Sequence record: MK524176.1
DNA: 64,000 nucleotides
From: Escherichia phage PHB11
Reading direction: 5' to 3' (one strand)
Shown: positions 48,442-64,000 of the stretch, one piece after another
How the letters are laid out: each line of letters opens with the position of its first letter
Position numbering within the stretch: the first letter of the stretch is position 1
The notes under the pieces: model-generated
What the model was told of the DNA's origin: nothing
The model's input: the letters and a program-made list of their open reading frames with translations, nothing else
Database searches by the model: none
Translations under genes and position numbers: made by a program

Positions 48442-50808
48442 ATGCGCATGGTAAATGACCACGCAGAAGTGATTAAGAGTTCAACTTCTTTAGAGACATC
48501 TCAAGCACAGATTACAATGACACCTGAAATGTTCAGCCTTCTGAGTTCTGGTGTATATACCTTTAAAGAGCGAGCAGTAATTCGTGAACTGTCATGTAAC
48601 GCAGTAGATGCTCAGAAAGAAGCTGGAAAAGAGGACATCCCGTTCCATGTGCATTTACCTACTCGTTTTGAGCCTTACTTTGAAGTTCGTGATTTTGGAA
48701 CTGGATTGACTCATGATAAAGTTATGAGTTTGTATCTAAATTACGGGGCTTCTACGAAGAATGACTCTAATGATTACATTGGTGCAATGGGTATCGGTTC
48801 AAAATCTCCATTTGCAATCGCTCAGTCATTCACAGTATCTAGCTATGTTGATGGTGTTGTTAATAAGTACTCTGTTTACCTTGAGAATGGCATCCCTCAA
48901 GTAACTAAGCTGACCACCAACCCAACAAAAGAACCTAATGGTTTAGCTGTACGTGTAGCAGTTGCTGACCATCGTATTTCAAAGTTCTTTGAAGAAGCTG
49001 GTCACGTATACTCATACTTTGCTGTAAAACCAGAAAGTAATATCGAGTATGACGATGTATTAGCAGACATGAATGTCATTGCCCGTGAAGAAGGTGTTTA
49101 TGATGCCATGATTCACAAACAAAGCTGGCGTTCTAGTGGCAACAGGACAGAGTTTAATGTGGTGATGGGTAACATTGCCTACCCAGTTAACATGGAAGCA
49201 TTACTTGGTGATGATTTCTTCAAAGTCTTGCCAGAGTTTTTCCGTAGGAGCGTAGACCTTGTAAACATCTATATGCCTATTGGTTCAGTTGCTATTGCAG
49301 CTTCTCGTGAAGCATTGCAGATGAATGATACAACAAAAAATGTTATCATTGAGGCTACTAAAAAGATAACTGAAGCAATTACAAAGGATGTTATCAAGAA
49401 AGTTAATAGCCAACCTACACTCATGGATGCTGCACAGGCTTATGCTGAGTTACGTTTAAACTCACGAGAGATGTTTAATGCTGTGTGTCCAAAACTAGAG
49501 TGGGGAGGCGTTAAGCTTGATTCTTTGGAAGAAGAATTGCTAAACATTCGTCGTGGAATTATCTACGCAGAAGACGGCTCAGTTATCTATGAACGTGATG
49601 GTAAAGGTAATATTAAGGTTGATAGGAACGGAAACAATATCCCTAAAGTAGATTATCTTTATAATCCAGTTGCTTATGTTAAGTTCAACTCTTTAGAAAG
49701 TAAGATTCGTGCAACAGCACTTTCCTACACTCAAGAGGCAAGTATGTTCAATATCTTTGGCGCAATGCGTAAAAGTCAAATTGAACAGTTTTTGTTTGTT
49801 ATAAATGACCGTCGCAATAAAAATGGTACTGAGAAGACTGTAGGACGCAATCAGATTCTGCGTGGTGCATGTCGAGACTATGCCAGCGAGTCAAGTCTGT
49901 TTCACAGATACAATGGTATTGTCTTTGTATTCTCTAATGAGGAAGAGCTAGATGATTTAATCAATCTGCACAAACTTGATAAAAGCTTGTTAAAGATTGT
50001 GAAGATGTCTGATAAGGAACATCATTATCAGCGTAAAGAAGCTGTAAGAGGTGTTGTAAAACTTTGGAAAGCTGTTCCAGCAGAAGGTGTAGCTTCATAC
50101 AAAGAGGTGTCAGAAGACTTAGATACGATTGAGGAGCCTCAGCTTTATATTAAGGCAGTAGGCGACACAGTTGATGGCGAATGTTTTTGCTCATCTCCAG
50201 AAGATGTAGCTAAGTCAGTTGCCAATGTCATTGGAAAGACAGTATATGTTTTCCGAAAAGCAAATTGGAAAAAGATACCAGAAGACTGGATTGAAGTAGA
50301 TGAGAAGCTCTTGAACGACAGCTTAACTGATGTTCACTGGATTAATCATAACAGGTATATGACACGTATCTATATGAATGGTGTCCTAGACCTGACAAGC
50401 AGTTGGATTATTGCCAGAAACTTTACGTTCAATAACAGGAAGATTTCTCGTGGTTATTGCTATTCACGAGACACAAACAAAACTATCTTCTTAGAAGGTA
50501 ATGAAGATGCTGTTGAGGCAATGTTTGGTAAAATCCAATACGTTGCTGCACCGTTTGCATACACTTATACTGTTAGCAGGTTGCAAACTTTGAAAGAATG
50601 CCTTGACAATGATACAAAGCTGTACAAGAAAATCAAGAAAGCTGGTGACCGTATGGTCATTAAGGTGACAAACTATCTTTCAAAAAGAAAACAAGAAAAC
50701 TTCTTGCTTTCTCATTTAGATTGGAATAAAGTGTCACCCATCGAAGTGAGTAAGTTCTTAGGCTTTGATGTGAAGTGTGTTCCAGAAGGGACTACAATTT
50801 ACGATTAA
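48442..50808 (+). CDS. rIIA: rIIA-like protein with GHKL-type ATPase domain
   Basis: Bergerat-fold boxes RELSCNAVDA (N box), DFGTGL (G1), GAMGIGSKS (G2); followed by an rIIB homologue. Confidence 0.6.
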   Translation: MRMVNDHAEVIKSSTSLETSQAQITMTPEMFSLLSSGVYTFKERAVIRELSCNAVDAQKEAGKEDIPFHVHLPTRFEPYFEVRDFGTGLTHDKVMSLYLNYGASTKNDSNDYIGAMGIGSKSPFAIAQSFTVSSYVDGVVNKYSVYLENGIPQVTKLTTNPTKEPNGLAVRVAVADHRISKFFEEAGHVYSYFAVKPESNIEYDDVLADMNVIAREEGVYDAMIHKQSWRSSGNRTEFNVVMGNIAYPVNMEALLGDDFFKVLPEFFRRSVDLVNIYMPIGSVAIAASREALQMNDTTKNVIIEATKKITEAITKDVIKKVNSQPTLMDAAQAYAELRLNSREMFNAVCPKLEWGGVKLDSLEEELLNIRRGIIYAEDGSVIYERDGKGNIKVDRNGNNIPKVDYLYNPVAYVKFNSLESKIRATALSYTQEASMFNIFGAMRKSQIEQFLFVINDRRNKNGTEKTVGRNQILRGACRDYASESSLFHRYNGIVFVFSNEEELDDLINLHKLDKSLLKIVKMSDKEHHYQRKEAVRGVVKLWKAVPAEGVASYKEVSEDLDTIEEPQLYIKAVGDTVDGECFCSSPEDVAKSVANVIGKTVYVFRKANWKKIPEDWIEVDEKLLNDSLTDVHWINHNRYMTRIYMNGVLDLTSSWIIARNFTFNNRKISRGYCYSRDTNKTIFLEGNEDAVEAMFGKIQYVAAPFAYTYTVSRLQTLKECLDNDTKLYKKIKKAGDRMVIKVTNYLSKRKQENFLLSHLDWNKVSPIEVSKFLGFDVKCVPEGTTIYD

Positions 50809-50813
50809 AGTGT

Positions 50814-50843
50814 TTGACAAGGGGCTTCAAAGCCCCTTAAAAT
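50814..50843 (+). promoter_or_regulatory. Promoter-like element with a hairpin in the spacer, upstream of rIIB
   Basis: TTGACA, then AGGGGCTTCAAAGCCCC (GGGGCT/AGCCCC stem), then TAAAAT. Confidence 0.4.
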
Positions 50844-50887: not shown

Positions 50888-51997
50888 ATGACTACTAAAA
50901 CTAAAGCACAGATTGACGCAGAAATTTACAAACTGGTTAAAGAAGGTAAGCTGACTAAAACAGCTATTGCACAGAAGTTCAATACTTCAACCCGTTCAGT
51001 TGGTCGTGCTGTAGAGCGCCATGAAGCAACCTTAAAGGGTAAGAAAAAGATAGCTTCTAAACCAGCTACGAAGACTTTGAAGCAAGTTGCTAAATCAGTT
51101 AAAAAGAAAACTGGAAAACCAGTTGAAAAGGCCGTTAAAGACACTGTACAAAAGGCTCCGGTAAATAAACTGCACGAAGCTATGCAGAAAGATAACAAGA
51201 TTGAGTACATGATTACTGGCGACTCTGTAATTATGACTTACGGTTCAGAATCTGAAATTGTTGAGTCTACTCATCCGAACTATCAAGAGATTGTAGTTCA
51301 TGTTGTGAAAGGTGAGTTCAAGAAAGCCTTTGAACTGATGAACATTCGTAAGTCTATCGAAAACTTTACTCAGGGTGCTATCACAATCAAAGGTGACAAG
51401 TTATTCTACGGTGCTGTTGAGATGCGTTCTACTCTGGTTGACCGTATCCTTCACATGATGAAGACTGGTGATAAAGGTTTTGAACGACTTGTAATGTTCT
51501 TCGAAAAACTGATGGAAAACCCATCTAAAGACTCTGTAGAACAACTTTGGGGATTTGTATCTCACCTTGATGTTGAAATTGATGAAGAAGGCTACATCAT
51601 TGGTTGGAAGAAAGCCTCTACTCGTGAAGGCAAGCTGGTTGACTCTCACACCTACAAAGTACCTAATGATTTGGGTAACATTGTAGAAATGCCACGTTGG
51701 ATGGTTGATAACAACCGTAACGTGACTTGCTCTCAGGGTCTTCATGTTGGTGCTTGGGACTATGTCCGTTGCTTCTCAGGTGATACAATTCTGAAGGTTC
51801 GTGTCCATCCACGAGATGTTGTATCTGTTCCAACTGATTACAACGATATGAAGATGCGTTCGTCCCGTTATGAAGTTGCAGCAATCGTTGATAATCAACG
51901 TAAAGTGCTGAAAGCATGGGACGGTAAGACTGAAGCTTTGCATGTCATCGTTGGCACTGCTGGTGAACTTATCTCTCAACGTAAGCGTGAAATCTAA
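50888..51997 (+). CDS. rIIB: rIIB-like protein
   Basis: Blocks KLFYGAVEMRSTLVDRIL and KVRVHPRDVVSVPTDYNDMKMRSSRYEV closely match my recollection of T4 rIIB. Confidence 0.7.
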   Translation: MTTKTKAQIDAEIYKLVKEGKLTKTAIAQKFNTSTRSVGRAVERHEATLKGKKKIASKPATKTLKQVAKSVKKKTGKPVEKAVKDTVQKAPVNKLHEAMQKDNKIEYMITGDSVIMTYGSESEIVESTHPNYQEIVVHVVKGEFKKAFELMNIRKSIENFTQGAITIKGDKLFYGAVEMRSTLVDRILHMMKTGDKGFERLVMFFEKLMENPSKDSVEQLWGFVSHLDVEIDEEGYIIGWKKASTREGKLVDSHTYKVPNDLGNIVEMPRWMVDNNRNVTCSQGLHVGAWDYVRCFSGDTILKVRVHPRDVVSVPTDYNDMKMRSSRYEVAAIVDNQRKVLKAWDGKTEALHVIVGTAGELISQRKREI

Positions 51998-52097: not shown

Positions 52098-52646
52098 ATG
52101 AAGAAGTTGATTCTAGGTTTGTGCTTAATGTTTACAGCACACTTATCTTATGCAGTTGACTGCCCAGAGCTATCAATTAGCCAAAAAGTAAACATGTTAA
52201 AAGCTTACCAGTATGGTGAGAATAATATGGGTAAAGGTTGGGGTATCACTCTAGCTGCTATAGCCTTACAAGAGTCAGAGTTAGGTCTGAAGGTAGAGAA
52301 TAAAAAGACCCATGACTATGGTATCTTCCAGAATCACTTGAAGACTGTTGTAAAGCGTAACAAAATCAGTCCTAATGTGGCTAAAAAGAAACTCTTAAAA
52401 GACTTTGACTATGCTGCAAAGGAAACACACAAAGAGCTTGAGTTTTGGACTAAGGTACATGGTCAACCAAAGTCAAAGAAGACTTTACAAAAAGTTTTAG
52501 CGTCATATAATGCTGGGTATTCGTACAAAATCCCTAAAGCTAAGAAATACTCTCAAGATGTTTACAACAATATGAAAGTCATCGCTCAATGTGAATTTGC
52601 AACAAACATTTCTAAGGTAAACCATGAAAAAATTAAGAAAGTCTGA
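52098..52646 (+). CDS. Secreted lytic transglycosylase (SLT domain); endolysin candidate
   Basis: Signal peptide MKKLILGLCLMFTAHLSYA; SLT motifs ALQESELG, YGIFQ, SYNAGYSY. Confidence 0.6.
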   Translation: MKKLILGLCLMFTAHLSYAVDCPELSISQKVNMLKAYQYGENNMGKGWGITLAAIALQESELGLKVENKKTHDYGIFQNHLKTVVKRNKISPNVAKKKLLKDFDYAAKETHKELEFWTKVHGQPKSKKTLQKVLASYNAGYSYKIPKAKKYSQDVYNNMKVIAQCEFATNISKVNHEKIKKV

Positions 52647-55353: not shown

Positions 55354-56139
55354 ATGGGTATTGTAAAAATTATCAAAGGCAACATCTTTGACGCATTTGA
55401 TAAAGGTAAGTTTGATATCATTGGTCATGGTTGCAACTGTATGAATTTCATGGGTGCAGGTATTGCAGCAACTATTTCTAAGCGTTATCCAAAAGTATAT
55501 GATACTGATACAGAAGTTTACCTGTTTGCAGGTGGTATTCGTCACAAACCATGTGAAAATCTGCTAGGTAATTTCTCTGTAACACGTTTAAAACAAGGCC
55601 GTATAGCCAATCTTTACACCCAGCTTCATACCGGTAAAGATGCCCGATATAGTGCTTTAGAGTCATCTTTGAAACAGCTTAACAGATACTGTGAAGTTAA
55701 TCAGTTGAAGAAAGTTGGGTTACCTATGATTGGTGCAGGTATCGGTGGACTAGACCCTCAAGCCGTCACAGTTATCATTAATCAGGTGATGAAGAGTGTA
55801 GATGTTTACCTGTATGTCTATGAGACAGAGATGTACAACGAGTTACACTCAGGTTGGAAGAACTACTGTGAACCAGAATACTTTGCAGGTGTAGTAGTGT
55901 TCACTGATGATGCAGTTACCCTCTTCAGACGAAGAAAAGGCAAGATACATCAAAGTAACCCTCCGGTTGAAAAGATGTCTCTAAGTAACGCTCTAGTTAC
56001 CCACCTGTCGAAGAGCAATCACAGAATTGCAGTAACATTTGGCAGTGATGCAGATACATATATCTATGCAAGAACTGATGAGGATATCGAGACGGTCTTC
56101 TCTTCACCGGAAGTAACCTTCTTAGACGCAAAGAACTAA
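55354..56139 (+). CDS. Macro-domain protein (ADP-ribose binding/processing) with C-terminal extension
   Basis: Macro-like blocks IIKGNIFDA, DIIGHGCNCMNFMGAGIAATI and VGLPMIGAGIGGLDP. Confidence 0.55.
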   Translation: MGIVKIIKGNIFDAFDKGKFDIIGHGCNCMNFMGAGIAATISKRYPKVYDTDTEVYLFAGGIRHKPCENLLGNFSVTRLKQGRIANLYTQLHTGKDARYSALESSLKQLNRYCEVNQLKKVGLPMIGAGIGGLDPQAVTVIINQVMKSVDVYLYVYETEMYNELHSGWKNYCEPEYFAGVVVFTDDAVTLFRRRKGKIHQSNPPVEKMSLSNALVTHLSKSNHRIAVTFGSDADTYIYARTDEDIETVFSSPEVTFLDAKN

Positions 56140-56207
56140 GAAACTCTGTAGAATATTCACAATAGGTTAAGCCTTTCTTATCTGGTAAATTTTTCAGGTA
56201 AGGAGGG

Positions 56208-56406
56208 CTTTTTCATTTCAGGATTGTGCAGGTAGAGTTCTGGACAGAAATCTGTAGAGAAAATTTTGAACTCCAAAGAGAAAATTCATTTTCAAACTGT
56301 GCAGGTAATCTCCAAAGAGCTTTTTCATTTTCAAAACGTGCAGACCCCGCTCAGGTCGGGCAAGAAAAATCATTTTAGAATTGTGCAGGTAGGTGGGTGC
56401 AGGTGG
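56208..56406. repeat. Iteron-like direct repeat array in non-coding DNA
   Basis: Four to five copies of TTCATTT(T)CA-N4-5-TGTGCAGGTA (TGTGCAGGTA at 56225, 56298, 56382; degenerate CGTGCAGAC at 56337; GTGCAGGTG at 56397); adjacent 38-39 bp tandem pair starting CTCCAAAGAG at 56271 and 56310. Confidence 0.6.
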
Positions 56407-56568
56407 GGATGTCGCCATTTCTCACAAGGCTACCACATCTGAAAAGAAAAGTCAACAGAAAAATTTGTAGCGGATTGAAAAATAATTCTTGATTGTAGTT
56501 CTGTTTTGTGGTAGTCGCGTGCGCCCGTTTCATTACAGTTTTTGCAAAAAATATTTTTAAAATTCCTA

Positions 56569-56597
56569 TTGACTCTTTGAATATGGTTATCTAATAT
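56569..56597 (+). promoter_or_regulatory. Sigma70-like promoter for the first early gene
   Basis: TTGACT, 17 bp spacer, TAATAT, about 50 nt upstream of ATG 56648. Confidence 0.45.
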
Positions 56598-56647
56598 TTG
56601 CATCAGACGGGCAATCAAGCCCACTTCCTAAACTGGAGAATCAAAAA

Positions 56648-56854
56648 ATGCTTTACAGTCGTGAATTGATGGTTACAACTAACGTTAACACAAAGGTAAA
56701 ACGTTTTTATATGCAAGTGTGCGGCGCATGGCGTAGAATATCAGAAGCTGACTATTGCAACTATGTAGAAACGGCTATTAATTCTAATTGCTACCTTACA
56801 ATAAACACTAAGAAGTTTACAAGACAGACAGCAATTTACTACTACGATAAATAA
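56648..56854 (+). CDS. Small early-region protein, unknown
   Basis: 68 aa; TIR CCTAAACTGGAGAATCAAAAAATG. Confidence 0.4.
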   Translation: MLYSRELMVTTNVNTKVKRFYMQVCGAWRRISEADYCNYVETAINSNCYLTINTKKFTRQTAIYYYDK

Positions 56855-56945
56855 AAAAGTACTTTACAGGGGGCTTAAAAGCTGATATCTTAAGCCCCAG
56901 ATAAAGAGCTTTACTAAACTAACCCTTAAACTAGGAGATTCAAAA
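56855..56945 (+). promoter_or_regulatory. Early cassette, class A
   Basis: AAGTACTTTACA, hairpin GGGGCTTAA-N11-TTAAGCCCC (TTTACA-17-TATCTT overlaps it), AGATAAAGAGCTTTAC, TIR ...CTAGGAGATTCAAAAATG. Confidence 0.45.
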
Positions 56946-57326
56946 ATGGCTTATCGTGCACCTAAATTCATCAACAAAGACAACTTTCGCAACGCACTGG
57001 AGAAGTCACTTGATGAAAATTTTAAAGGTAATATTATCGTTGTTCACGCATTCAATTTTAAGTATGATGTAAACGGGAATAGAATCAACCATTACACAGC
57101 AACCATGTTAGATGGTACGCTATCAAGTGAAAAAGCTGTACTGAATGCACTTGCAGGACGTGGTAAAAACCTGATAAGATGCGATAAGAGACGTTATCAG
57201 GGTGGCGCATATGGTTATGATGATGCTGTTTATCATCTTGAAAATATGGGCTATTCAGTGGAAAAAGCTGGAGTGTCTCAAATAATCGGCAGTGACGGCT
57301 ATGTGACAATTTTCAAAATTAACTAA
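56946..57326 (+). CDS. Small early-region protein, unknown
   Basis: 126 aa ORF preceded by a class A cassette. Confidence 0.45.
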   Translation: MAYRAPKFINKDNFRNALEKSLDENFKGNIIVVHAFNFKYDVNGNRINHYTATMLDGTLSSEKAVLNALAGRGKNLIRCDKRRYQGGAYGYDDAVYHLENMGYSVEKAGVSQIIGSDGYVTIFKIN

Positions 57327-57414
57327 TAAAGTACTTTACAGGGGGCTTATAGTTCGATAAAGTAAGCCCCAGATAAAGAGCTTTACCACTAAATCCTAAA
57401 TTGGAGATTCAAAA
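57327..57414 (+). promoter_or_regulatory. Early cassette, class A
   Basis: TAAAGTACTTTA palindrome overlapping the upstream stop, GGGGCTTA...TAAGCCCC hairpin, conserved TIR. Confidence 0.45.
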
Positions 57415-57705
57415 ATGGCTATTATTAAAAACGTTGTAATTCCTGCAAAAACTCGTGATGACGCTCGCATCATGGCGAAAAAGTTAGGCGGGAAAGTGGT
57501 TGACAACGGAAAACAAACTGCTGTAAGGTGGAACGTGAAGGCGGATAAACAAATGAATTTAAAAAATTCACCAATAAACCTTTTTACATGTGTAAACACT
57601 ATCGGGAAAACGAATGTATACACTAAAAAGGCATATATCAGACGCATCGCCATGACGTCACCTATTCGCACAATGAGAAGTCATGCAAAGCTGAAAATTA
57701 AGTAA
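57415..57705 (+). CDS. Small early-region protein, unknown (basic)
   Basis: 96 aa ORF preceded by a class A cassette. Confidence 0.45.
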   Translation: MAIIKNVVIPAKTRDDARIMAKKLGGKVVDNGKQTAVRWNVKADKQMNLKNSPINLFTCVNTIGKTNVYTKKAYIRRIAMTSPIRTMRSHAKLKIK

Positions 57706-57795
57706 TAGAGTACTTTACAGGGGGCTTAAAAGCTGATATCTTAAGCCCCAGATAAAGAGCTTTACCACTCAATCCTTAAACTAGGAGATTCAAAA
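57706..57795 (+). promoter_or_regulatory. Early cassette, class A
   Basis: GAGTACTTTACA, GGGGCTTAA...TTAAGCCCC hairpin, conserved TIR. Confidence 0.45.
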
Positions 57796-58308
57796 ATGAA
57801 AACTGTAGACGCTACCTTTGAAGTTGTAAAAGAAAAATTTTCCATCATTTACGAAGCTGTCAATTGCTACGAAGCAAGCCATAATCTTGATAATTGGAAG
57901 TTTACAGATGACCATCAAGGCGGTGTGACTATTAAAAACCCCAACTGTCAGCGTAATGGATTTAAATATGCAATTCCTTTACATTACAGCCTTAAACAGC
58001 TTTCAATTGACTATGCAAAACAAGGCCGGGAAAATCCATCGAAAGAGGCTTACATCAGCTTACAGAAAGAACTAGAAAGAGATTTAGAGGCTTCAGAATA
58101 TAACATCGCCGCGAAAGTTGTAGATGCAAACGGTAGCACGGTTTTAGAGAGTTTTTATATTGGTTATGCTTTCGATTGGTGCTACAGTGACGGCGATGAT
58201 TTAGATGACAGACTAAAAGAGGAAGTGAACAACGCAGACGCAGAATCTGAAGTATTAGAACGCTTGGAAGCATTAAAAGATTCAGTGATGAATATCTTTA
58301 AGAACTAA
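57796..58308 (+). CDS. Small early-region protein, unknown (acidic C-terminus)
   Basis: 170 aa ORF preceded by a class A cassette. Confidence 0.45.
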   Translation: MKTVDATFEVVKEKFSIIYEAVNCYEASHNLDNWKFTDDHQGGVTIKNPNCQRNGFKYAIPLHYSLKQLSIDYAKQGRENPSKEAYISLQKELERDLEASEYNIAAKVVDANGSTVLESFYIGYAFDWCYSDGDDLDDRLKEEVNNADAESEVLERLEALKDSVMNIFKN

Positions 58309-58399
58309 ATAGATTTCTTTACACGGGGCTAACAAGCGGATATGATAGCCCCAGATAAAGAGATTTATCAAATTAACCCTTAAACTAGGAGATTCAAAA
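58309..58399 (+). promoter_or_regulatory. Early cassette, class A variant
   Basis: TTTACA, 17 bp spacer, TATGAT with compensating hairpin GGGGCTA...TAGCCCC; conserved TIR. Confidence 0.45.
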
Positions 58400-58696
58400 A
58401 TGAAATTATCAAATAAAGTTAGGGAAAACCTTAGCAAATTACTCAACAAAATTGATTTTATAGAGACATCAAGGAATAGTCATGATGTTATGGAATGGTT
58501 ACACGGCAAAATAAAAGGCCGTCGTGTAGTGATTTGCTTATGGAATAGTTGCAGGGAGTATAAAAAGCCTGTATTGCAAATTAATGTTTATGATGATACT
58601 TTTAAAAGTCCTGTAAAGTCTAAAAGCGATTTATTAGAATCCTATGAGATAACTGTAAATGGCAAAGTATCACGTAAAGAGGAAACACCATGTTAA
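58400..58696 (+). CDS. Small early-region protein, unknown
   Basis: 98 aa ORF preceded by a class A cassette. Confidence 0.45.
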   Translation: MKLSNKVRENLSKLLNKIDFIETSRNSHDVMEWLHGKIKGRRVVICLWNSCREYKKPVLQINVYDDTFKSPVKSKSDLLESYEITVNGKVSRKEETPC

Positions 58697-59022
58697 TGAC
58701 TGGTATCACTGCAATCATTGCCATTTTCGCGCTATATAAGGCATATAAAGCCTATAATCTAGCAAATAAGGCAATCACACAGCAAGTTAGCAATAACCTT
58801 GTAGAGAGCTTTCTAGGGCGTTTAAGTGATGAGCAAATAAAGCGGCTAGAGATGAGCTTCAGATATAAAGCGAAAACCTATCAGATAAGTGACATCTTCA
58901 AAGATGATTTCCAGTTAGTTGATGATTATAATTCTCTGATAAATGCTTTAAACATCAGTGACTTGAAAGACTATCACGCTGTAATTGTTCAAGAATTGAG
59001 CAAACGAAAACAAAGTGTTTGA
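58690..59022 (+). CDS. Small early-region protein, unknown
   Basis: 110 aa ORF overlapping the upstream stop; N-terminal hydrophobic helix. Confidence 0.4.
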   Translation: MLMTGITAIIAIFALYKAYKAYNLANKAITQQVSNNLVESFLGRLSDEQIKRLEMSFRYKAKTYQISDIFKDDFQLVDDYNSLINALNISDLKDYHAVIVQELSKRKQSV

Positions 59023-59113
59023 CACTGATTTTTAGATAGGTTAAATTACACATCAACGGGGAGGGGATGACCTTCCCCACTAAATAAAGTCCTTAAACTA
59101 GGAGATTCTAAAA
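59019..59113 (+). promoter_or_regulatory. Early cassette, class B (promoter, 5' UTR hairpin, TIR)
   Basis: TTGACA, 17 bp spacer, TAAATT, ATCAACGGGGAGGGGATGACCTTCCCC hairpin, ACTAAATAAAGTCCTTAAACTAGGAGATTCTAAAAATG. Confidence 0.5.
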
Positions 59114-59272
59114 ATGTTTTGTGCAGGTGATAAAGTTGTCTGGAATGATATAGATGACGGTTTATGTACGAAAGTTGTTGTTATCTTAGAAATTGATTAT
59201 ATCACTGGTGTTGCAACTGTAGCAGATAATGATATAATCTTTGATGTCTTAATTAGTGAACTGTCAAAATAA
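59114..59272 (+). CDS. Small early-region protein (not in ORF track, 52 aa)
   Basis: ATG right after a class B cassette; translation MFCAGDKVVWNDIDDGLCTKVVVILEIDYITGVATVADNDIIFDVLISELSK. Confidence 0.4.
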   Translation: MFCAGDKVVWNDIDDGLCTKVVVILEIDYITGVATVADNDIIFDVLISELSK

Positions 59273-59297
59273 AGTCCTTAAACTAGGAGATTCAAAA
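59273..59297 (+). promoter_or_regulatory. TIR-only module (no own promoter), operonic with 59114..59272
   Basis: AAAGTCCTTAAACTAGGAGATTCAAAAATG immediately after the upstream stop. Confidence 0.45.
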
Positions 59298-59570
59298 ATG
59301 TACACTACTAACAACGGTCGCACCTTAAATGCAACCCTACGCCACTATGTGAACGGTGTAATGCACTTCGAGGATTTACAAGCTGAACAGCACATTTTGG
59401 ATTGGCAACTTGCAGGATTCCAAAAAACTGCTACCGGATACGGGAAAAAGATTCCAACTAGCTGGAAAGTATACTACGAAGGCCGTTTGCGTAGAATTTA
59501 TCAAGATGTATGCGGCAATAGCGCATCAAGTTACATCATAGTAAAAGGCAAAAAGCTGCATTTAGCATAA
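59298..59570 (+). CDS. Small early-region protein, unknown
   Basis: Start set at MYTTNNG (59298); the track start 59256 reads through the conserved TIR. Confidence 0.45.
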   Translation: MYTTNNGRTLNATLRHYVNGVMHFEDLQAEQHILDWQLAGFQKTATGYGKKIPTSWKVYYEGRLRRIYQDVCGNSASSYIIVKGKKLHLA

Positions 59571-59655
59571 AGTACTTTACAAGGGGCTTATAAGTCTGTA
59601 CAGTAAGCCCCAGATAAAGAGCTTTACCACTAAATCCTAAATTGGAGATTCAAAA
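59571..59655 (+). promoter_or_regulatory. Early cassette, class A
   Basis: TAAAGTACTTTA palindrome, GGGGCTTA...TAAGCCCC hairpin, conserved TIR. Confidence 0.45.
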
Positions 59656-60060
59656 ATGGCTATTAATAATCGTGAGTTATCTATCTTAAAAGCACGTTTG
59701 ACCGTTAACCGGATTAATGTTATCACATCAGCAGCACCGGATGAAACACTGCAAAACATTATTGGGAAGATTCAAAGTGTTATCTTAGACGTTGAAAGCG
59801 TAAAAAACTCATTGGCTGACGTTGCAGCCGGTATCACGCTAGACGGTGCACAACATGAGATGGCCGACATGTTAGGCAAATCAAAGGTAATGAATAAAGA
59901 ATTAGACTTGAAAATGTTTCGATTTGCTGTTAAAGTGTGGCTATCCGTCGAGTATGACGCTAATTTTGCAATCGCTGATTTCTTTGCCACTTGGTTACAA
60001 CGTAACTTAACAAATCATGATTTCCGTGATGTCTGTGATGCAATCTACGCAGAACTTTAA
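59656..60060 (+). CDS. Small early-region protein, unknown
   Basis: 134 aa ORF preceded by a class A cassette. Confidence 0.45.
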   Translation: MAINNRELSILKARLTVNRINVITSAAPDETLQNIIGKIQSVILDVESVKNSLADVAAGITLDGAQHEMADMLGKSKVMNKELDLKMFRFAVKVWLSVEYDANFAIADFFATWLQRNLTNHDFRDVCDAIYAEL

Positions 60061-60160
60061 AAAGATGTTGACACTGATTTTTAGATAGATTAAATTACTC
60101 ATCAACGGGGAGGCAATAACCTCCCTACTAAATAAAGTCCTTAAACTAGGAGATTCTAAA
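60061..60160 (+). promoter_or_regulatory. Early cassette, class B
   Basis: TTGACA (60068-60073), 17 bp spacer, TAAATT, ATCAACGGGGAGG...CCTCCC hairpin, conserved TIR. Confidence 0.5.
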
Positions 60161-60358
60161 ATGGCTATTATTAACGGCTTAACCATTGAAACAACACACA
60201 TCAAAGATATCAAAGTTGGTGATGTAGTCCTTTCCCACGGCGTAGAAAAAACTGTCACTGCAAAGGATATCAAAGAGGATTCTTTCATGGGTAGAACTCT
60301 CTTCGGTGATTCTTATTGCTTAGGTTATCTTGCAGTTTTAAAAGTTGTCAAAAATTAA
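60161..60358 (+). CDS. Small early-region protein, unknown
   Basis: 65 aa ORF preceded by a class B cassette. Confidence 0.4.
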   Translation: MAIINGLTIETTHIKDIKVGDVVLSHGVEKTVTAKDIKEDSFMGRTLFGDSYCLGYLAVLKVVKN

Positions 60359-60450
60359 GTAATAAAGTACTTTACAAGGGGCTTAAAAAGTTGGTATCTT
60401 AAGCCCCAGATAAAGAGCTTTACACAGTCCTTAAACTAGGAGATTAAAAA
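60359..60450 (+). promoter_or_regulatory. Early cassette, class A
   Basis: TAAAGTACTTTACA, GGGGCTTAA...TTAAGCCCC hairpin, TIR variant CTAGGAGATTAAAAAATG. Confidence 0.45.
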
Positions 60451-60699
60451 ATGATGAATTATTTAAACATTCCCGACACTTGCAAACTGTTAACGCAACC
60501 AGAAAATTTAGGTAAGGCTTACCTATACCATATGCCAAATAATACGGCAAAAACTTATAGTTACACTGTTAACCGATTCACGGCATACGCTGCAAAAAAC
60601 GGTTACAAGGTTGTTACTCAAAAAGTAACACTGTTTACAACTGTTGAGGAACTCCCCACGGTTGCAGTTAAACTGATTTTTTCAAAGAAAACTAAATAG
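60451..60699 (+). CDS. Small early-region protein, unknown
   Basis: 82 aa ORF preceded by a class A cassette. Confidence 0.45.
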   Translation: MMNYLNIPDTCKLLTQPENLGKAYLYHMPNNTAKTYSYTVNRFTAYAAKNGYKVVTQKVTLFTTVEELPTVAVKLIFSKKTK

Positions 60700-60784
60700 A
60701 TTTCTTTACACGGGGTTATCAAGCTGATAAGATAGCCCCAGATAAAGAAATTTATCAAATAAATCCTAAACTGGAGATTCAAAA
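60700..60784 (+). promoter_or_regulatory. Early cassette, class A variant
   Basis: TTTACA, 17 bp spacer, TAAGAT with hairpin GGGGTTATC...GATAGCCCC; conserved TIR. Confidence 0.45.
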
Positions 60785-61327
60785 ATGAAATGTTTTCACG
60801 GTACTACTCAAGAAAACTTTATCAACCTGATTAATAACGGTGATAAACCATCAGGCGCATGGAATTGTTCTGATATGGATGGGAATTTTTACGTTTACCC
60901 AGAGAATAAAATCTATGGCGACGATGAGGAAGAAATAATCTTTGAAGGTATCCAGCAAGCTCTGGGCAATGCCACTATCACCGCAGCTTTTCAGATGAAA
61001 ACTCAAAACATTGTTATCTTGGAACTTGAGATTCCAGAAGATGAGCTAAACGATGATTATTCTTGTGATAATATGTCGAGCGTGGCAAGTTTTACAGAAT
61101 ATTTCGATTTAAATTGGATTAAAAAGGTTTACATCACTGAATTTAATGCTATGTATTCGCCTTTTTGTCTTCCTTCACTGGATAACCCAAATATGAATTA
61201 TCTTGATGAGACATTAGAACTACTTGCTAAAAGTGTTCAACAATCGGACAGTATTCAGGTTTTTTGTGACATCATGGACACACTAACGGAAAACATCGCA
61301 GAAGAGGATTTAAAGAGCTTTTTCTAA
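60785..61327 (+). CDS. Small early-region protein, unknown (acidic)
   Basis: 180 aa ORF preceded by a class A cassette. Confidence 0.45.
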   Translation: MKCFHGTTQENFINLINNGDKPSGAWNCSDMDGNFYVYPENKIYGDDEEEIIFEGIQQALGNATITAAFQMKTQNIVILELEIPEDELNDDYSCDNMSSVASFTEYFDLNWIKKVYITEFNAMYSPFCLPSLDNPNMNYLDETLELLAKSVQQSDSIQVFCDIMDTLTENIAEEDLKSFF

Positions 61328-61359
61328 AAACCTATGCAATCACATTATAAACACTATTC

Positions 61360-61380
61360 AGCCCCTTGTAGGGGCTTTTA
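61360..61380 (+). terminator. Intrinsic terminator inside the early array
   Basis: GCCCC-TTGTA-GGGGC hairpin followed by TTTT. Confidence 0.55.
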
Positions 61381-61393
61381 AGAGGCTTAAATC

Positions 61394-61627
61394 ATGCTTA
61401 CAACCGTTTATCTTATCCTTTCTATATGTAATGGTCATTCATGCGATTTTAAAGGGCTTGAAGAGTTTACAGGAAGTAAAGAAAATGCTATTCAAGTTTG
61501 CCAGATAGCGAGACAAGACTATCCCGCAAGTGATGATATTCAGTGTTACTTTAAGACAGAAGATGAAGACGGTATCTATTTTGACAGTGTAGATGGTCAA
61601 TATGAAATTATCATTGAAAAAGACTAG
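61394..61627 (+). CDS. Small early-region protein, unknown
   Basis: 77 aa ORF with AGAGG SD; lacks the conserved cassette. Confidence 0.4.
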   Translation: MLTTVYLILSICNGHSCDFKGLEEFTGSKENAIQVCQIARQDYPASDDIQCYFKTEDEDGIYFDSVDGQYEIIIEKD

Positions 61628-61716
61628 ACAAGCCTGATAAAAGTCTGTAAATTGTCAATCAACGGGAGGGATGACCTTCCCCACTAAATAAAGTCCTTAA
61701 ACTAGGAGATTCAAAA
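61625..61716 (+). promoter_or_regulatory. Early cassette, class B
   Basis: TAGACA, 17 bp spacer, TAAATT, ATCAACGGGAGGGATGACCTTCCCC hairpin, conserved TIR. Confidence 0.45.
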
Positions 61717-62058
61717 ATGGCTTATGTAACCGTAATTACCGATAAAGCTGGCGCATCTTGGTCAACTCAAGTAAGCGATAAGATGTCACCTATGCAGTGC
61801 CTAAAATACTTTGAGCAATGGAACAAAGGCGAGGAAACAAGCCCCTTTCAAGTAATGCAGATTATCCATACAGATAACGAAGGGAAGAAAACTGTTTTGA
61901 ATAGTGAGTACTACGCAACCAGATTTGAAACGAGAAGTAAAGCAATGAAGCTCTTACGTGAATCCGGTTATTCTCATATTGCCGCGCTAATCTGGGATGA
62001 CCTCCTAAAAAGTCAGCGTATCAGCTACGTAAAACCTGAAAAAATATTCATCAGCTAA
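61717..62058 (+). CDS. Small early-region protein, unknown
   Basis: 113 aa ORF preceded by a class B cassette. Confidence 0.45.
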   Translation: MAYVTVITDKAGASWSTQVSDKMSPMQCLKYFEQWNKGEETSPFQVMQIIHTDNEGKKTVLNSEYYATRFETRSKAMKLLRESGYSHIAALIWDDLLKSQRISYVKPEKIFIS

Positions 62059-62090
62059 TCAATAACTTACAAAAAACTTTTAAAAAAGTG

Positions 62091-62119
62091 TTGACAATAC
62101 CCCTTGACATTGGTAATGT
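62091..62119 (+). promoter_or_regulatory. Additional promoter-like element with tandem TTGACA boxes
   Basis: TTGACA at 62091 and 62104; TAATGT 17 bp after the first. Confidence 0.35.
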
Positions 62120-62187
62120 TGTTCGAGGGGGTTTATCTAAAAGGGATTCACTTAAAAGATTCTTTATAGATAAACTGAAAAAATTGC

Positions 62188-62278
62188 TTGCAATCAGATA
62201 TCAAAGCAAGTAAATTACTAATCAACGGGAGGGATGACCTCCCCACTAAGTAAAGTCCTTAAACTAGGAGATTCTAAA
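62188..62278 (+). promoter_or_regulatory. Early cassette, class B
   Basis: TTGCAA, 17 bp spacer, TAAATT, ATCAACGGGAGGGATGACCTCCCC hairpin, TIR ...CTAGGAGATTCTAAAATG. Confidence 0.45.
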
Positions 62279-62809
62279 ATGAACAAGTTCAAAGCTATCA
62301 ATTACATTCGTTCAAATAGTGTTATGTCAAAACCTGTTAAAGACACTTACGAATTCCGTTGCAATGGTGTACACTTCGCAACCATCACCAAATCAGAAAA
62401 CGGGGCTTATTACGTCCATCGCCGTAATGTTGCAACTGTTGTAGTCTCTCATTTTATGCAAGCTATCGCGGAATTATTACCGTTATTCTTAGAGATTTAT
62501 CTAGATGATTGTAAAAACGTTCACAATCACGTTAAAAACCTTTTAAATGGTTATAAAATGGCTTATGAACGTTCTATCAAGTCCTTGAACAAGTTCTATA
62601 AAGCCCCTGTAAATACCGTTTCAATGGCCTACGGTATAGGTGGCTGGACTGTTAACCTTTCTCTAGTGGAAGAAATCGAACTTTATGATTTACGTCCTAG
62701 CGGTTACTCTAAGACACTGGGAGAAGGTTTAACGTTCAATATCAAGAACTTAGAAAAAACTTTAAAAGATATTGAAAAAGATATTGACGAGACAATCAAA
62801 AATCTGTAA
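62279..62809 (+). CDS. Small early-region protein, unknown
   Basis: Start set at MNKFKAI (62279); the track start 62234 reads through the TIR. Confidence 0.45.
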   Translation: MNKFKAINYIRSNSVMSKPVKDTYEFRCNGVHFATITKSENGAYYVHRRNVATVVVSHFMQAIAELLPLFLEIYLDDCKNVHNHVKNLLNGYKMAYERSIKSLNKFYKAPVNTVSMAYGIGGWTVNLSLVEEIELYDLRPSGYSKTLGEGLTFNIKNLEKTLKDIEKDIDETIKNL

Positions 62810-62878
62810 ATTGTCAATCAACGGGGAGGGGATGACCTTCCCCACTAAGTAAAGCCCTTAAACTAGGAGATTCAAAAA
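62784..62878 (+). promoter_or_regulatory. Early cassette, class B; promoter embedded in the 3' end of the upstream gene
   Basis: TTGACG, 17 bp spacer, TAAATT (overlapping stop codon), ATCAACGGGGAGGGGATGACCTTCCCC hairpin, conserved TIR. Confidence 0.45.
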
Positions 62879-63127
62879 ATGGCAACTATCCGCGCAACTG
62901 TTAACGAATTTGGCTTCTACTCTCTGGATGTTAAATTTGACCTTGTAGGCACTAACAACGCCTTTGAAATGGTGAAAGGCCTTATCAGTCAGATAATCAA
63001 AGATTATAATCCTTCGGATGAGTTCTGGGAAGAAACAAAACAGGAAGTTTTTACGCATGGTCACACTTATTACTATTGGGGAGAAAAAATCGTCTCCTTG
63101 TACTACGATAAACAAGGTTGCAACTAA
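62879..63127 (+). CDS. Small early-region protein, unknown
   Basis: 82 aa ORF preceded by a class B cassette. Confidence 0.45.
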   Translation: MATIRATVNEFGFYSLDVKFDLVGTNNAFEMVKGLISQIIKDYNPSDEFWEETKQEVFTHGHTYYYWGEKIVSLYYDKQGCN

Positions 63128-63165
63128 TCAACGCAACGGGGCTAAATAGCCCCAGATACCTGAAC

Positions 63166-63191
63166 AGCCCCTATTTAAAGGGGCTTTTTTA
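63166..63191 (+). terminator. Intrinsic terminator closing the early array
   Basis: AGCCCCT-ATTTA-AAGGGGCT hairpin followed by TTTTTT. Confidence 0.6.
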
Positions 63192-63529
63192 CGTCTAGCG
63201 AATCCTTATACAATCCCTTTCCACCTCCTTTCTAGAATCTTATCAGACCTTAAAAAGCAATAACTCTATAGCTTACTCTATAGCCCCTTATCAAATCAAC
63301 TTAAATATAAGCCCATAACCCGAAAGGGAAGGGCAACCATTAATTGGTATTGTTACCAATCCCTAAAACGCTCTATAAAGCTCTATAACAGCCTTATCAA
63401 TCTAACTTAAGGGATTGCATTACCTCACCCTTAAAAGCCCTTTATAGAGCTTCCCAGAGCCTTAAAAGAATCTTATAAGGGTGTGAGCTTTATCATCTCG
63501 TTAGCTATCTTGTGAATAACTAAAAAGGG

Positions 63530-63994
63530 CTTGTTAGTGTCTTAAAAGTATGTTATAGGGGCTTAAAAGTTACTTTGAAGTAGCTTAAAAGTTACTTTGA
63601 AGTAGCTTAAAAGTTACGTAAATGCTAGCCCCCTTAACATTTTCTTAACAATTTCTTAACAAACCCTACATAGTTATGCTTTTAAGGCACTTGTTAGCAA
63701 CTTGTTAGCCCCTTGTTAAATCTCTGTTAATACCTCGTAAAAGCCTTGTAAGAGCCTTTGGCATAGCCTTTAAAGCCCCTGTAAAGCCCTATAAAGAGCT
63801 TTCTATATAGTTGGGGTGTAATTACTAGAAAGAGACTAAAAAGAGCTTATAAGGAGCTATAAAGGGCTTTTAAGAGGGCTATTTAAAAGGTCACTAAGAG
63901 GGAAAGGGAACGATAAGAAAAGAGATAGTGACCATGTTAACAGCTTGTTAAAAAGATTAAACACTTGTTAGGAACTTGTTAATTATCTTAACAA
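63530..63994. repeat. Cluster of CTTGTTA(R) motifs in both orientations in non-coding DNA
   Basis: CTTGTTAG/CTTGTTAA at 63530, 63690, 63701, 63712, 63944, 63964, 63975; inverted CTTAACAA at 63644, 63655, 63987. Confidence 0.6.
63561..63617. repeat. Tandem direct repeat, 22 bp unit, about 2.6 copies
   Basis: GCTTAAAAGTTACTTTGAAGTA at 63561 and 63583, partial copy at 63605. Confidence 0.7.
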
Positions 63995-64000
63995 AATAAC

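What the first reader, a model, noticed from the sequence alone, without database searches (positions are those of the whole stretch)
56855..60376. Perfect palindrome TAAAGTACTTTA overlapping stop codons in class A cassettes
In several class A cassettes the upstream gene's TAA stop is the first half of a 12 bp perfect palindrome TAAAGTACTTTA (e.g. 57324-57335, 59568-59579, 60356-60367; shorter AGTACT versions at 56859 and 57709). A palindrome fixed at the coding/non-coding junction is more constrained than a terminator needs. It could be a dimeric protein-binding site, or a nuclease or recombination site defining cassette borders.
Basis: seen in the sequence. Interest (0 to 1): 0.4.

Follow-up and report, generated by a model that had tools for sequence, protein, structure and literature searches.

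The report
Palindrome inside phage early promoter cassettes
The 12-base palindrome is where a stop codon, an A-rich stretch and the -35 box of a host-type early promoter overlap in a repeated cassette of a Felix O1-like phage; it also forms one strand of a conserved RNA hairpin, so it is probably not a protein or nuclease site of its own.

Summary
The window is a Felixounavirus (Felix O1-like) genome. TAAAGTACTTTA occurs exactly three times (57327, 59568, 60363; 0.02 expected), always in a ~100-bp intergenic cassette repeated between small early ORFs. The right half, CTTTA(CA), is the invariant -35 box of a sigma-70 promoter: TTTACA-N17/18-TAnnnT in 102 of 103 distinct cassettes. The left half, TAA-AG, is the upstream gene's stop or back-up stop followed by an A-tract.

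The 12-mer is also the 5' strand of the basal helix of a two-tier hairpin. Its partner is TAAAGAGCTTTA, 47 nt downstream. The upper GC stem encloses the -10 box. This hairpin is kept across four Ounavirinae genera, with compensatory changes and 147 G·U against 4 A·C pairs, which points to sense-strand RNA.

Palindromic symmetry itself shows no compensation. The exact palindrome is present in 53/75 Felixounavirus-type cassettes, 7/45 GGGGTT-type and 0/8 Kolesnikvirus-type.

Gene gains and losses between relatives break at the cassettes. The closest known element is the PeSL (promoter-early stem-loop) cassette of T4-like phages. I file this as a new member of that kind, with an extra basal helix. 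Promoter activity and the hairpin's role are inferred, not shown. Interest is modest.

The parts
57327..57338 (+). Exact palindrome TAAAGTACTTTA. It consists of a second in-frame TAA, an A-tract, then C plus the first 4 nt of the -35 box. It is the 5' strand of the basal helix.
59568..59579 (+). Exact palindrome. Its TAA is the real stop of ORF 59298-59570. It is the 5' strand of the basal helix.
60363..60374 (+). Exact palindrome, starting 5 nt after the real stop (60356-58). It is the 5' strand of the basal helix.
56856..56912 (+). Cassette 1 two-tier hairpin. The 5' arm is AAAAGTACTTTA, the promoter is TTTACA-17-TATCTT at 56863-56891, and the 3' arm is TAAAGAGCTTTA at 56902-56913.
   Evidence: (dG -21.0, z -3.6)
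57327..57385 (+). Cassette 2 two-tier hairpin. The promoter is TTTACA-17-TAAAGT at 57335-57363, the predicted +1 is about 57370/71, and the 3' arm is 57374-57385.
   Evidence: (dG -22.4, z -4.2)
57706..57764 (+). Cassette 3 two-tier hairpin. The 5' arm is TAGAGTACTTTA, the promoter is TTTACA-17-TATCTT at 57714-57742, and the 3' arm is 57753-57764.
   Evidence: (dG -23.9)
58309..58368 (+). Cassette 4 (subclass 2). Its arms are non-palindromic: ATAGATTTCTTTA pairs with TAAAGAGATTTAT in a continuous 13-bp basal helix. The promoter is TTTACA-17-TATGAT at 58318-58346.
   Evidence: dG -24.8, z -6.8
59568..59626 (+). Cassette 5 two-tier hairpin. The promoter is TTTACA-17-TACAGT at 59576-59604 and the 3' arm is 59615-59626.
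   Evidence: (dG -21.6)
60363..60422 (+). Cassette 6 two-tier hairpin. The promoter is TTTACA-18-TATCTT at 60371-60400 and the 3' arm is 60411-60422.
   Evidence: (dG -21.0)
60696..60755 (+). Cassette 7 (subclass 2, non-palindromic arms). The stop TAG at 60697-99 is nt 1-3 of the 12-mer equivalent. The promoter is TTTACA-17-TAAGAT at 60705-60733.
   Evidence: dG -25.1, z -8.0

Best explanation
The 12-mer is not a separate element. It is the place where several signals of a compact 'promoter-early stem-loop' cassette overlap.

Shown from sequence and comparison:
- Nt 1-3 (TAA or TAG) are the stop or back-up stop of the upstream small ORF.
- Nt 8-12 (CTTTA) are C plus the first four bases of an invariant -35 box, TTTACA. 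It is followed after 17-18 bp by TAnnnT, often preceded by TG.
- The whole 12-mer pairs with TAAAGAGCTTTA, 47 nt downstream, to form the basal helix of a two-tier hairpin. The hairpin has a 3x3 internal loop and an upper GGGGCTTA/TAAGCCCC stem whose loop carries the -10 box.
- This hairpin is conserved with compensatory and sense-strand G·U changes across Felixounavirus, Mooglevirus, Suspvirus and Kolesnikvirus.
- The cassettes sit at the points where relatives gain or lose single ORFs.

Inferred:
- Host sigma-70 RNA polymerase starts about 7 nt after TAnnnT, at the A of CAGATAAAG. Each small ORF would then have its own early promoter.
- The A-tract at -42 to -40 acts like a proximal UP subsite.
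- The hairpin forms only in read-through RNA from upstream. There it insulates neighbouring cistrons, as a 3'-end stabiliser or RNase III-type processing site, and perhaps as a weak attenuator.
- The palindromic look of the 5' arm is a by-product. An A-run (stop plus UP-like tract) faces the T-run of the TTTACA -35 variant, and concerted evolution of the repeats within Felixounavirus fixed GTAC in the middle.
- About 100 bp of homology between cassettes lets homologous recombination shuffle the ORFs.
For: Promoter.
- TTTACA is invariant, and TAnnnT is present in 102 of 103 distinct cassettes, at spacer 17 (98) or 18 (4). Only T1, A2 and T6 of the hexamer are fixed. TG sits at -15/-14 in 56 of the 102.
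- In Felix O1, ORFs 16 and 20, directly downstream of the same 57-bp repeat, are maximally expressed at 5 min (PMC3185647).
- Upstream of the -35 box, AAAG plus 3 nt also precedes TTGACA at the rIIB promoter and a class B promoter, where no palindrome results. In Erwinia phage M7, AAAGAGCTTTACA and AAAGCATTGCAA occur without any 3' partner arm.

Hairpin.
- All seven cassettes in the window fold into the same shape, with dG -21 to -25 kcal/mol and z -3.4 to -8. Cassettes from the other genera fold the same way.
- On 103 distinct cassettes, 97.4% of cells pair. The G-C to U-A double change occurs in 12 cells, against 2.0±1.3 in shuffles (0 of 500 shuffles reach it).
- With Kolesnikvirus added, further double changes appear at basal pair 1 and at upper pairs 3, 7, 8 and 9.
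- Non-Watson-Crick pairs are 147 G·U against 4 A·C on the sense strand.

Palindrome is incidental.
- There is no compensation within the 12-mer, and the score equals the shuffles.
- The exact palindrome is found in 53/75 Felixounavirus-type, 7/45 GGGGTT-type and 0/8 Kolesnikvirus-type cassettes.
- Position 7, the unpaired base of the helix, varies A/G/T/C.

Stop codon. Nt 1-3 are the true stop in 61 of 135 contexts and a tandem in-frame stop in 34. Position 3 varies only between A and G, giving TAA or TAG.

Module borders. All flanked ORFs are of unknown function.

Precedent. PeSLs of RB49/phi1 have the same layout and were shown to act as strong promoters and to block read-through (PMC2839356).
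Against: - No transcript mapping exists for these phages in the searchable literature. Promoter use, the start site and the fate of read-through RNA are therefore inferred.
- Compensatory evidence in the basal helix rests on few positions, and cassette copies are related by descent and gene conversion, so the counts are not independent events.
- My collection patterns fixed the 3'-arm bases TAAAGA. Five basal pairs therefore could not vary, and say nothing for or against pairing.
- That the left half is exactly the complement of the -35 flank in most cassettes of three genera is more coincidence than the promoter-plus-stop argument fully explains. AAAGnnCTTT is kept in both arms even in Kolesnikvirus, which a 5-2-5 protein site would also predict.
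- The hairpin has no U-tract, so a terminator role like that reported for RB49 PeSLs is doubtful. The RNase III idea has no direct support.
Confidence: 0.7

Rival explanations
1. Operator model. TAAAGnnCTTTA is a 5-2-5 inverted repeat bound by a dimeric phage or host regulator. Each subclass-1 cassette carries two such sites, one over the -35 box and one at about +4 to +15, so binding would shut off early promoters.
For: All 8 occurrences of TAAAGNNCTTTA in 64 kb lie in five cassettes, against 0.22 expected. AAAGnnCTTT is kept in both arms in all genera. Early shut-off in these phages is unexplained. A TAAAGAGCT-like motif also clusters in the non-coding region at 63.4-63.9 kb.
Against: - Subclass-2 cassettes and TAAATTGC variants lose the half-sites but keep the promoter and the hairpin. 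Their changes are matched in the other arm of the same cassette, as pairing predicts, not as binding predicts.
- The strong G·U against A·C asymmetry is not expected for a duplex-DNA site.
- The site centres are 47 bp apart, about 4.5 helical turns, which is poor phasing for cooperative binding.
- No DNA-binding domain was found in the early ORFs I scanned.
Confidence: 0.12
2. The 12-mer is the recognition or cleavage site of a site-specific nuclease or recombinase that excises and inserts ORF cassettes.
For: The motif marks the 5' edge of every subclass-1 cassette, and cassettes are the indel boundaries between relatives. PeSL authors speculated about a stem-loop-specific recombination protein.
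Against: - Breakpoints lie at both edges of the cassettes and at class B cassettes that lack the 12-mer. Overlapping HSPs indicate crossovers within ~100 bp of homology.
- Subclass-2 and sister-genus cassettes shuffle without the palindrome.
- No integrase or homing-nuclease domain was seen in the ORFs scanned. Only the early region was scanned.
Confidence: 0.05
3. The hairpin, with the 12-mer as its base, is mainly a transcription terminator or attenuator for upstream transcription, as reported for RB49 PeSL stem-loops.
For: The RB49 PeSL211/210 stem-loop reduced lacZ expression about as much as rrnB T1. The rIIB promoter here has a GC hairpin in its spacer followed by TTAAAAT. Promoter-coupled terminators are reported to be widespread.
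Against: There is no U-tract after either stem (AGAUAAAG..., CCACUAAA...). None of the seven hairpins is called terminator-like, whereas canonical terminators occur elsewhere in the same region.
Confidence: 0.2
4. DNA cruciform or single-stranded DNA hairpin used at the DNA level, for example a hairpin promoter as in phage N4 or a replication signal.
For: The long inverted repeat surrounds the promoter. G·T pairs are tolerated in single-stranded DNA.
Against: The 10-12-nt loop, the 3x3 internal loop and the mismatches make cruciform extrusion unfavourable (general knowledge). The conservation pattern of -35, spacer and -10 is that of an ordinary duplex sigma-70 promoter. The phage is reported to lack its own RNA polymerase.
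Confidence: 0.03

Closest known systems
PeSL (promoter-early stem-loop) regulatory cassettes of T4-like phages RB49/phi1, PST/T4 and nt-1/KVP40 (Arbiol et al. 2010, PMC2839356; Comeau et al. 2014, PMC4122927)
   Same: - A repeated ~100-bp intergenic unit.
- The upstream stop codon lies in an AT-rich tract just before the -35 box.
- A sigma-70-type -35/N17/-10 promoter. The PST/T4 type is TTTACW-N17-TAYWAT, the same -35 as here.
- A GGGG...CCCC stem-loop with G-T pairs lying between or over the -35 and -10 boxes.
- A conserved Shine-Dalgarno sequence and ATG at the 3' end.
- Flanks small ORFs of unknown function in a variable region.
- Indels between relatives break at the cassettes.
   Different: - The host lineage is Ounavirinae, not T4-like.
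- blastn found no related cassette outside Ounavirinae-type records, so this looks like an analogue, not a demonstrable homologue.
- There is an additional AU-rich basal helix pairing the stop/-35 region with +4 to +15 of the transcript. This is not part of the PeSL features in the passages I read; I could not see the figures.
- There is no U-tract.
- Promoter activity, read-through block and mini-circles are untested here.
Promoter-coupled terminators in bacteria (Fletcher et al. 2026, bioRxiv 10.64898/2026.08.19.745784)
   Same: The same DNA serves the RNA hairpin of the upstream unit and the promoter of the downstream unit. The stem-loop DNA overlaps the -35 box and spacer.
   Different: In that case the terminator T-tract sits just upstream of the -10 box, with the termination site about 10 bp before the start site. 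Here the -10 box is inside the hairpin loop and there is no T-tract. Only the rIIB promoter at 50814-50843 resembles their layout.
RNase III processing hairpins between early genes of phage T7 (established knowledge, not tested here)
   Same: Intergenic position in an early polycistronic region. About 20 bp of stem interrupted by an internal loop. Repeated at several gene junctions.
   Different: No cleavage data exist here. T7 sites do not contain promoters. The resemblance is structural only.
Dimeric repressor operators (for example lambdoid operators overlapping -35/-10)
   Same: A short palindrome overlapping a -35 box, with a second similar site downstream of the start.
   Different: Symmetry is neither conserved nor compensated. 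The substitutions follow RNA pairing rules. No cognate DNA-binding protein was identified.

Membership tests
PeSL-type cassette | Repeated conserved intergenic motif of ~100 bp between tandem small ORFs | tested here: met
   Seven class A copies lie at 56.85-60.8 kb. More than 100 distinct copies were found in relatives.
PeSL-type cassette | Sigma-70-like early promoter (-35, ~17 bp, -10) with an AT-rich tract upstream that holds the upstream stop codon | tested here: met
   TTTACA-N17/18-TAnnnT is present in 102 of 103 cassettes. In 134 of 135 contexts the stop lies within the first 3 nt of the 12-mer or at most 7 nt upstream.
PeSL-type cassette | Stable stem-loop with a polyG/polyC stem, placed between or over the -35 and -10 boxes, with G-T pairs | tested here: met
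   The GGGGCTTA...TAAGCCCC stem starts 0-1 nt after the -35 box and encloses the -10 box. G·U occurs in 41 of 103 cassettes at pair 25-46.
PeSL-type cassette | Shine-Dalgarno sequence and start codon at the 3' end | tested here: met
   CCTTAAACTAGGAGATTCAAAAATG or a close variant is present in every copy.
PeSL-type cassette | Associated with ORFs of unknown function in a variable region, with indels between relatives breaking at the cassettes | tested here: met
   Ten of ten flanked ORFs match only PHROGs of unknown function. 140 of 166 breakpoints lie outside coding interiors. Overlapping HSPs are seen at cassettes.
PeSL-type cassette | Experimentally shown promoter strength, block of read-through, and mini-circle formation | not testable with these tools
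   The only indirect support is that Felix O1 ORFs 16 and 20 peak at 5 min.
PeSL-type cassette | Occurs in T4-like myoviruses; sequence homology to the described PeSLs | tested here: not met
   The phage belongs to Ounavirinae. blastn of the cassette hit only Ounavirinae-type records. I therefore file it as an analogue or new member of the kind, not as a homologue.
Intrinsic (Rho-independent) terminator | GC-rich hairpin immediately followed by a U/T-tract | tested here: not met
   No class A hairpin appears in the terminator-like list. The tails are AGATAAAG and CCACTAAA.
Palindromic operator or restriction-like site | Two-fold symmetry maintained in evolution (both halves conserved or changing together) | tested here: not met
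   No change on both sides is seen, and the score equals the shuffles. The perfect palindrome is found in 53/75, 7/45 and 0/8 cassettes by lineage.
Palindromic operator or restriction-like site | A cognate DNA-binding protein or nuclease binds or cuts the site | not testable with these tools
   No DNA-binding or nuclease domain was found in the early ORFs scanned.
RNase III processing site (T7-type) | About two turns of double-stranded RNA, often with an internal loop, in a polycistronic transcript | tested here: met
   The stems are 11-13 bp plus 7-9 bp, separated by a 3x3 loop.
RNase III processing site (T7-type) | Cleavage dependent on rnc in vivo or in vitro | not testable with these tools
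   No data exist.

The most novel reading that the evidence does not exclude
The two-tier hairpin is a dedicated RNA processing signal, for RNase III or a phage factor. Cleavage in or next to the 3x3 loop of read-through RNA would give a downstream mRNA whose 5' end nearly coincides with the primary start of the embedded promoter. Every small early ORF would then be expressed from the same leader whether its RNA is made by initiation or by processing. The near two-fold symmetry of the basal helix (TAAAGnnCTTTA on both strands) would be selected for recognition by a dimeric double-stranded-RNA or DNA binding protein.
Probability: 0.15. Interest if true: 0.55.

Novelty: new member of a known kind. 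Interest (0 to 1): 0.3.

Why it matters
The analysis gives the Felix O1 group a concrete map of early promoters. The Felix O1 genome paper listed this repeat only as a direct repeat and stated that it was unknown how transcription passes the many terminators and how timing is controlled.

It also shows that the PeSL design, which combines a promoter, an RNA hairpin and a recombination handle in ~100 bp, exists outside T4-like phages. That supports the idea that such cassettes are a general way for virulent phages to shuffle accessory early genes.

The cassettes are also compact strong-promoter and insulator parts that could be useful in phage engineering.

For the scan, the lesson is that a perfect palindrome in a repeat family can arise from overlapping promoter and RNA-structure constraints.

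Tried and rejected
- Chance. Rejected: 3 copies against 0.02 expected. The copies are paralogous, however.
- Terminator. No T-tract, and the hairpins are not called by the scan.
- Symmetry selection. Tested directly and not found.
- Direct-repeat or 'degraded second -35' origin of the 3' arm. The variant arms match better as reverse complements than as direct copies: 10/12 against 7/12 for subclass 2. G5>T goes with C8'>A rather than with position 5'.
- Universal AAAGT upstream element. Only partly true. It is present at the rIIB promoter and some class B promoters, but many class B copies have other A/T-rich tracts.
- RegB-like nuclease acting on the conserved GGAG. The Mordin annotation suggests RegB similarity for the 182-aa ORF, but Pfam gave only a sub-threshold SLT match. 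Dropped.
- Rfam. No family matches the cassettes.
- Literature searches for transcript maps of Felix O1-like phages found none.
- Restriction-site reading (GTAC/AGTACT). No evidence, and the core 8-mer is not enriched.

Full report
**Context.** The region matches Felix O1-like myoviruses (Felixounavirus). The best hit is Escherichia phage vB_EcoM_Shy at 97% identity, and 250 phage records match. In the window, rIIA (48442-50808) and rIIB (50888-51997) are followed by a run of small same-strand ORFs up to about 63.1 kb. Between these ORFs lie two families of repeated intergenic cassettes. The finding concerns 'class A', which has seven copies with TTTACA at 56863, 57335, 57714, 58318, 59576, 60371 and 60705.

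**Observation.**
- TAAAGTACTTTA occurs exactly three times, at 57327, 59568 and 60363, against 0.02 expected.
- One-mismatch versions lie at 56855 and 57706.
- All copies are inside class A cassettes, so the count reflects a repeat family rather than three independent events. The core 8-mer is not enriched.
- The claim that the TAA is the stop codon holds for one of the three (59568). At 57327 it is a second in-frame stop, and at 60363 the stop is 5 nt upstream.
- Family-wide, nt 1-3 are the true stop in 61 of 135 contexts and a tandem stop in 34. In all but one of the rest the stop lies 1-7 nt upstream. Position 3 varies only between A and G, which gives TAA or TAG.

**What the right half is.** CTTTA runs into TTTACA. 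After 17 or 18 bp comes TAnnnT in every window copy. The same holds in 102 of 103 distinct cassettes collected from GenBank relatives and IMG/VR contigs. Within the hexamer only T1, A2 and T6 are fixed, and TG precedes it in 56 cases. This is the conservation signature of a sigma-70 -10 box, not that of a hairpin loop. In Felix O1 the same 57-bp repeat lies upstream of genes 16 and 20, which are maximally expressed 5 min after infection. The promoter is therefore well supported by sequence, but its activity is inferred.

**What the whole 12-mer is.**
- Folded as RNA, all seven cassettes give one architecture: a basal helix of 11-13 bp, a 3x3 internal loop, an upper GC-rich stem of 7-9 bp starting 0-1 nt after the -35 box, and a 10-12-nt loop that carries the -10 box.
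- In subclass 1 the 5' strand of the basal helix is exactly the 12-mer, and the 3' strand is TAAAGAGCTTTA, 47 nt downstream. Free energies are -21 to -25 kcal/mol and z-scores -3.4 to -8.
- All eight TAAAGNNCTTTA sites in 64 kb are these arms.
- Two window cassettes (58309-58368 and 60696-60755) have non-palindromic arms, ATAGATTTCTTTA with TAAAGAGATTTAT, yet they form an even better 13-bp basal helix.

**Comparative test.**
- On 103 distinct cassettes, 97.4% of cells pair in the two-tier structure.
- The G-C pair at arm position 5/8' is replaced by U-A in 12 cassettes, against 2.0±1.3 in shuffles (0 of 500).
- The same alignment scored for pairing within the 12-mer shows no change on both sides and is indistinguishable from shuffles. 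When the left half varies, the -35 half never follows. The distant 3' arm follows instead.
- Adding Erwinia/Salmonella Kolesnikvirus cassettes gives further double changes: basal pair 1 (T-A to A-T), upper pair 3 (GGGG/CCCC to GGTG/CACC), upper pair 7 (T-A to A-T in 23 cassettes), and several pair types at upper pairs 8 and 9. The fold is the same.
- Non-Watson-Crick pairs are 147 G·U against 4 A·C on the sense strand. This favours selection on the sense transcript rather than on duplex DNA.
- The perfect palindrome is present in 53/75 Felixounavirus-type, 7/45 GGGGTT-type and 0/8 Kolesnikvirus-type cassettes. The central A (position 7) is the one unpaired base of the helix and varies A/G/T/C.
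- Caveats: copies are related by descent and gene conversion, and my search patterns fixed six bases of the 3' arm. The invariant pairs are therefore uninformative, and the counts are not independent events.

**Why the left half is TAAAG.** Part of the answer is the stop or back-up stop (TAA/TAG). Part is an A-tract at about -42 to -40, where a proximal UP subsite would lie (established knowledge of UP elements; not tested here). AAAG plus 3 nt also precedes TTGACA at the rIIB promoter and one class B promoter, where no palindrome results. Erwinia phage M7 has AAAGAGCTTTACA and AAAGCATTGCAA promoters without a 3' partner arm. An A-run facing the T-run of the TTTACA -35 variant makes a palindrome likely. 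Some coincidence remains unexplained, and AAAGnnCTTT is kept in both arms in all genera. I therefore keep a 5-2-5 protein site as a minor rival.

**Cassette borders.** I aligned 56400-63300 to 26 related loci. Of 166 alignment breakpoints, 140 fall outside coding interiors, although 71% of the region is coding interior. Adjacent HSPs overlap by about 100 nt in the subject, exactly over a cassette. This shows loss or gain of single ORFs by cassette-to-cassette recombination; for example, ORF 57415-57705 is absent in L082, L018 and L128. Breakpoints occur at both cassette edges and at class B cassettes that lack the 12-mer. The homology block, not the palindrome, is therefore the plausible recombination substrate. 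All ten flanked ORFs scanned belong to PHROGs of unknown function.

**Mechanism.**
- Shown: overlapping stop, -35 box and hairpin arm; conservation of promoter and hairpin; module boundaries at cassettes.
- Inferred: host RNA polymerase initiates at about the A of CAGATAAAG. Transcripts from the cassette's own promoter would then contain only the 3' arm, while read-through transcripts from upstream contain the full hairpin.
- There is no U-tract, and the scan calls none of these hairpins terminator-like, although canonical terminators exist nearby.
- I therefore favour an RNA-level insulator (3'-end stabiliser or RNase III-type processing site) over an intrinsic terminator. This step is unproven.

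**Comparison with known systems.**
- The layout matches PeSLs of T4-like phages almost feature for feature: upstream stop in an AT-rich tract, a sigma-70-type promoter (TTTACW-N17-TAYWAT in the T4/PST type), a GGGG...CCCC stem-loop between or over the boxes with G-T pairs, a Shine-Dalgarno sequence and ATG, association with ORFans, and indels at the cassettes.
- It differs in lineage (Ounavirinae), in having no detectable sequence homology, in the extra basal helix, and in the absence of experimental tests.
- The Felix O1 genome paper reported the repeat only as a direct repeat and left early promoters unidentified.
- Promoter-coupled terminators are a looser analogue.
- Rfam has no matching family.

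**Verdict.** The palindrome is real and non-random. It is best explained as a by-product of overlapping signals in a PeSL-like cassette. I rate it a new member of a known kind, with modest interest.

Noticed in passing
window 59019-59116, 60068-60164, 61625-61720, 62208-62282, 62807-62881: A second cassette family ('class B') with a different layout. The promoter is TTGACA-N17-TAAATT. About 10 nt further on comes a GGGGAGGG...CCTTCCCC hairpin that would sit at the 5' end of the transcript, followed by the same Shine-Dalgarno/ATG block. Relatives annotate these hairpins as terminators, although they lack a T-run.
   Followed up: partly
window 50814-50843: The rIIB promoter is TTGACA-N18-TAAAAT, with a GGGGCTT-ca-AAGCCCC hairpin inside the spacer followed by TTAAAAT. 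This looks like a promoter-coupled terminator between rIIA and rIIB. It is conserved, with compensatory loop and stem variants, in relatives.
   Followed up: partly
window 56205-56390 (non-coding gap 56140-56647): Four spaced copies of a ~25-34-nt repeat (TTTTCATTTTCAAAnnGTGCAGG) lie after a strong terminator (56169-56210). Similar repeats (TTTTTCATTTTCAATTTGTGCATAG) occur at the equivalent place in Erwinia phage M7 (L004 7497-7957). They could be iteron-like or regulator-binding sites; their function is unknown.
   Followed up: no
window 56540-56598: The first promoter of the small-ORF cluster has a textbook full UP element (AAAAAATATTTTTAAAATTCCTA) ahead of TTGACT-N17-TAATAT. It is conserved in relatives and is probably the strongest early promoter of the region.
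   Followed up: no
window 63190-64000 (runs off the window end): A long non-coding region after the terminator at 63166-63190. It is dense in short repeats: three 22-bp tandem units at 63544-63617 containing AAAGTTACTTT, many CTTGTTA(G/A) motifs, and seven TA(A/T)AG(A/G)GCT-like motifs including an exact TAAAGAGCT at 63792. The last motif resembles the 3' arm of the class A cassette. This might be a regulatory, origin or terminal-repeat region.
   Followed up: partly
window 55354-56139 (+): The 261-aa ORF carries a Macro domain (Pfam E 3e-7, above the cut-off). One relative annotates it as a possible RNase III inhibitor (YmdB-like). This would be of interest if the cassette hairpins are RNase III substrates.
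   Followed up: partly
window 52098-52646 (+): The 182-aa ORF is annotated in phage Mordin as similar to T4 RegB endoribonuclease. Pfam gives only a sub-threshold SLT (lysozyme-like) match here. Every cassette has GGAG in its Shine-Dalgarno sequence, which is the RegB target in T4, so the idea is worth a proper test.
   Followed up: partly
L002 (Citrobacter phage Mordin) 8494-8610: A tandem duplication of the class A cassette with a 56-bp period. The second copy lacks the AAAGTAC left half. This looks like a footprint of unequal recombination between cassettes.
   Followed up: no
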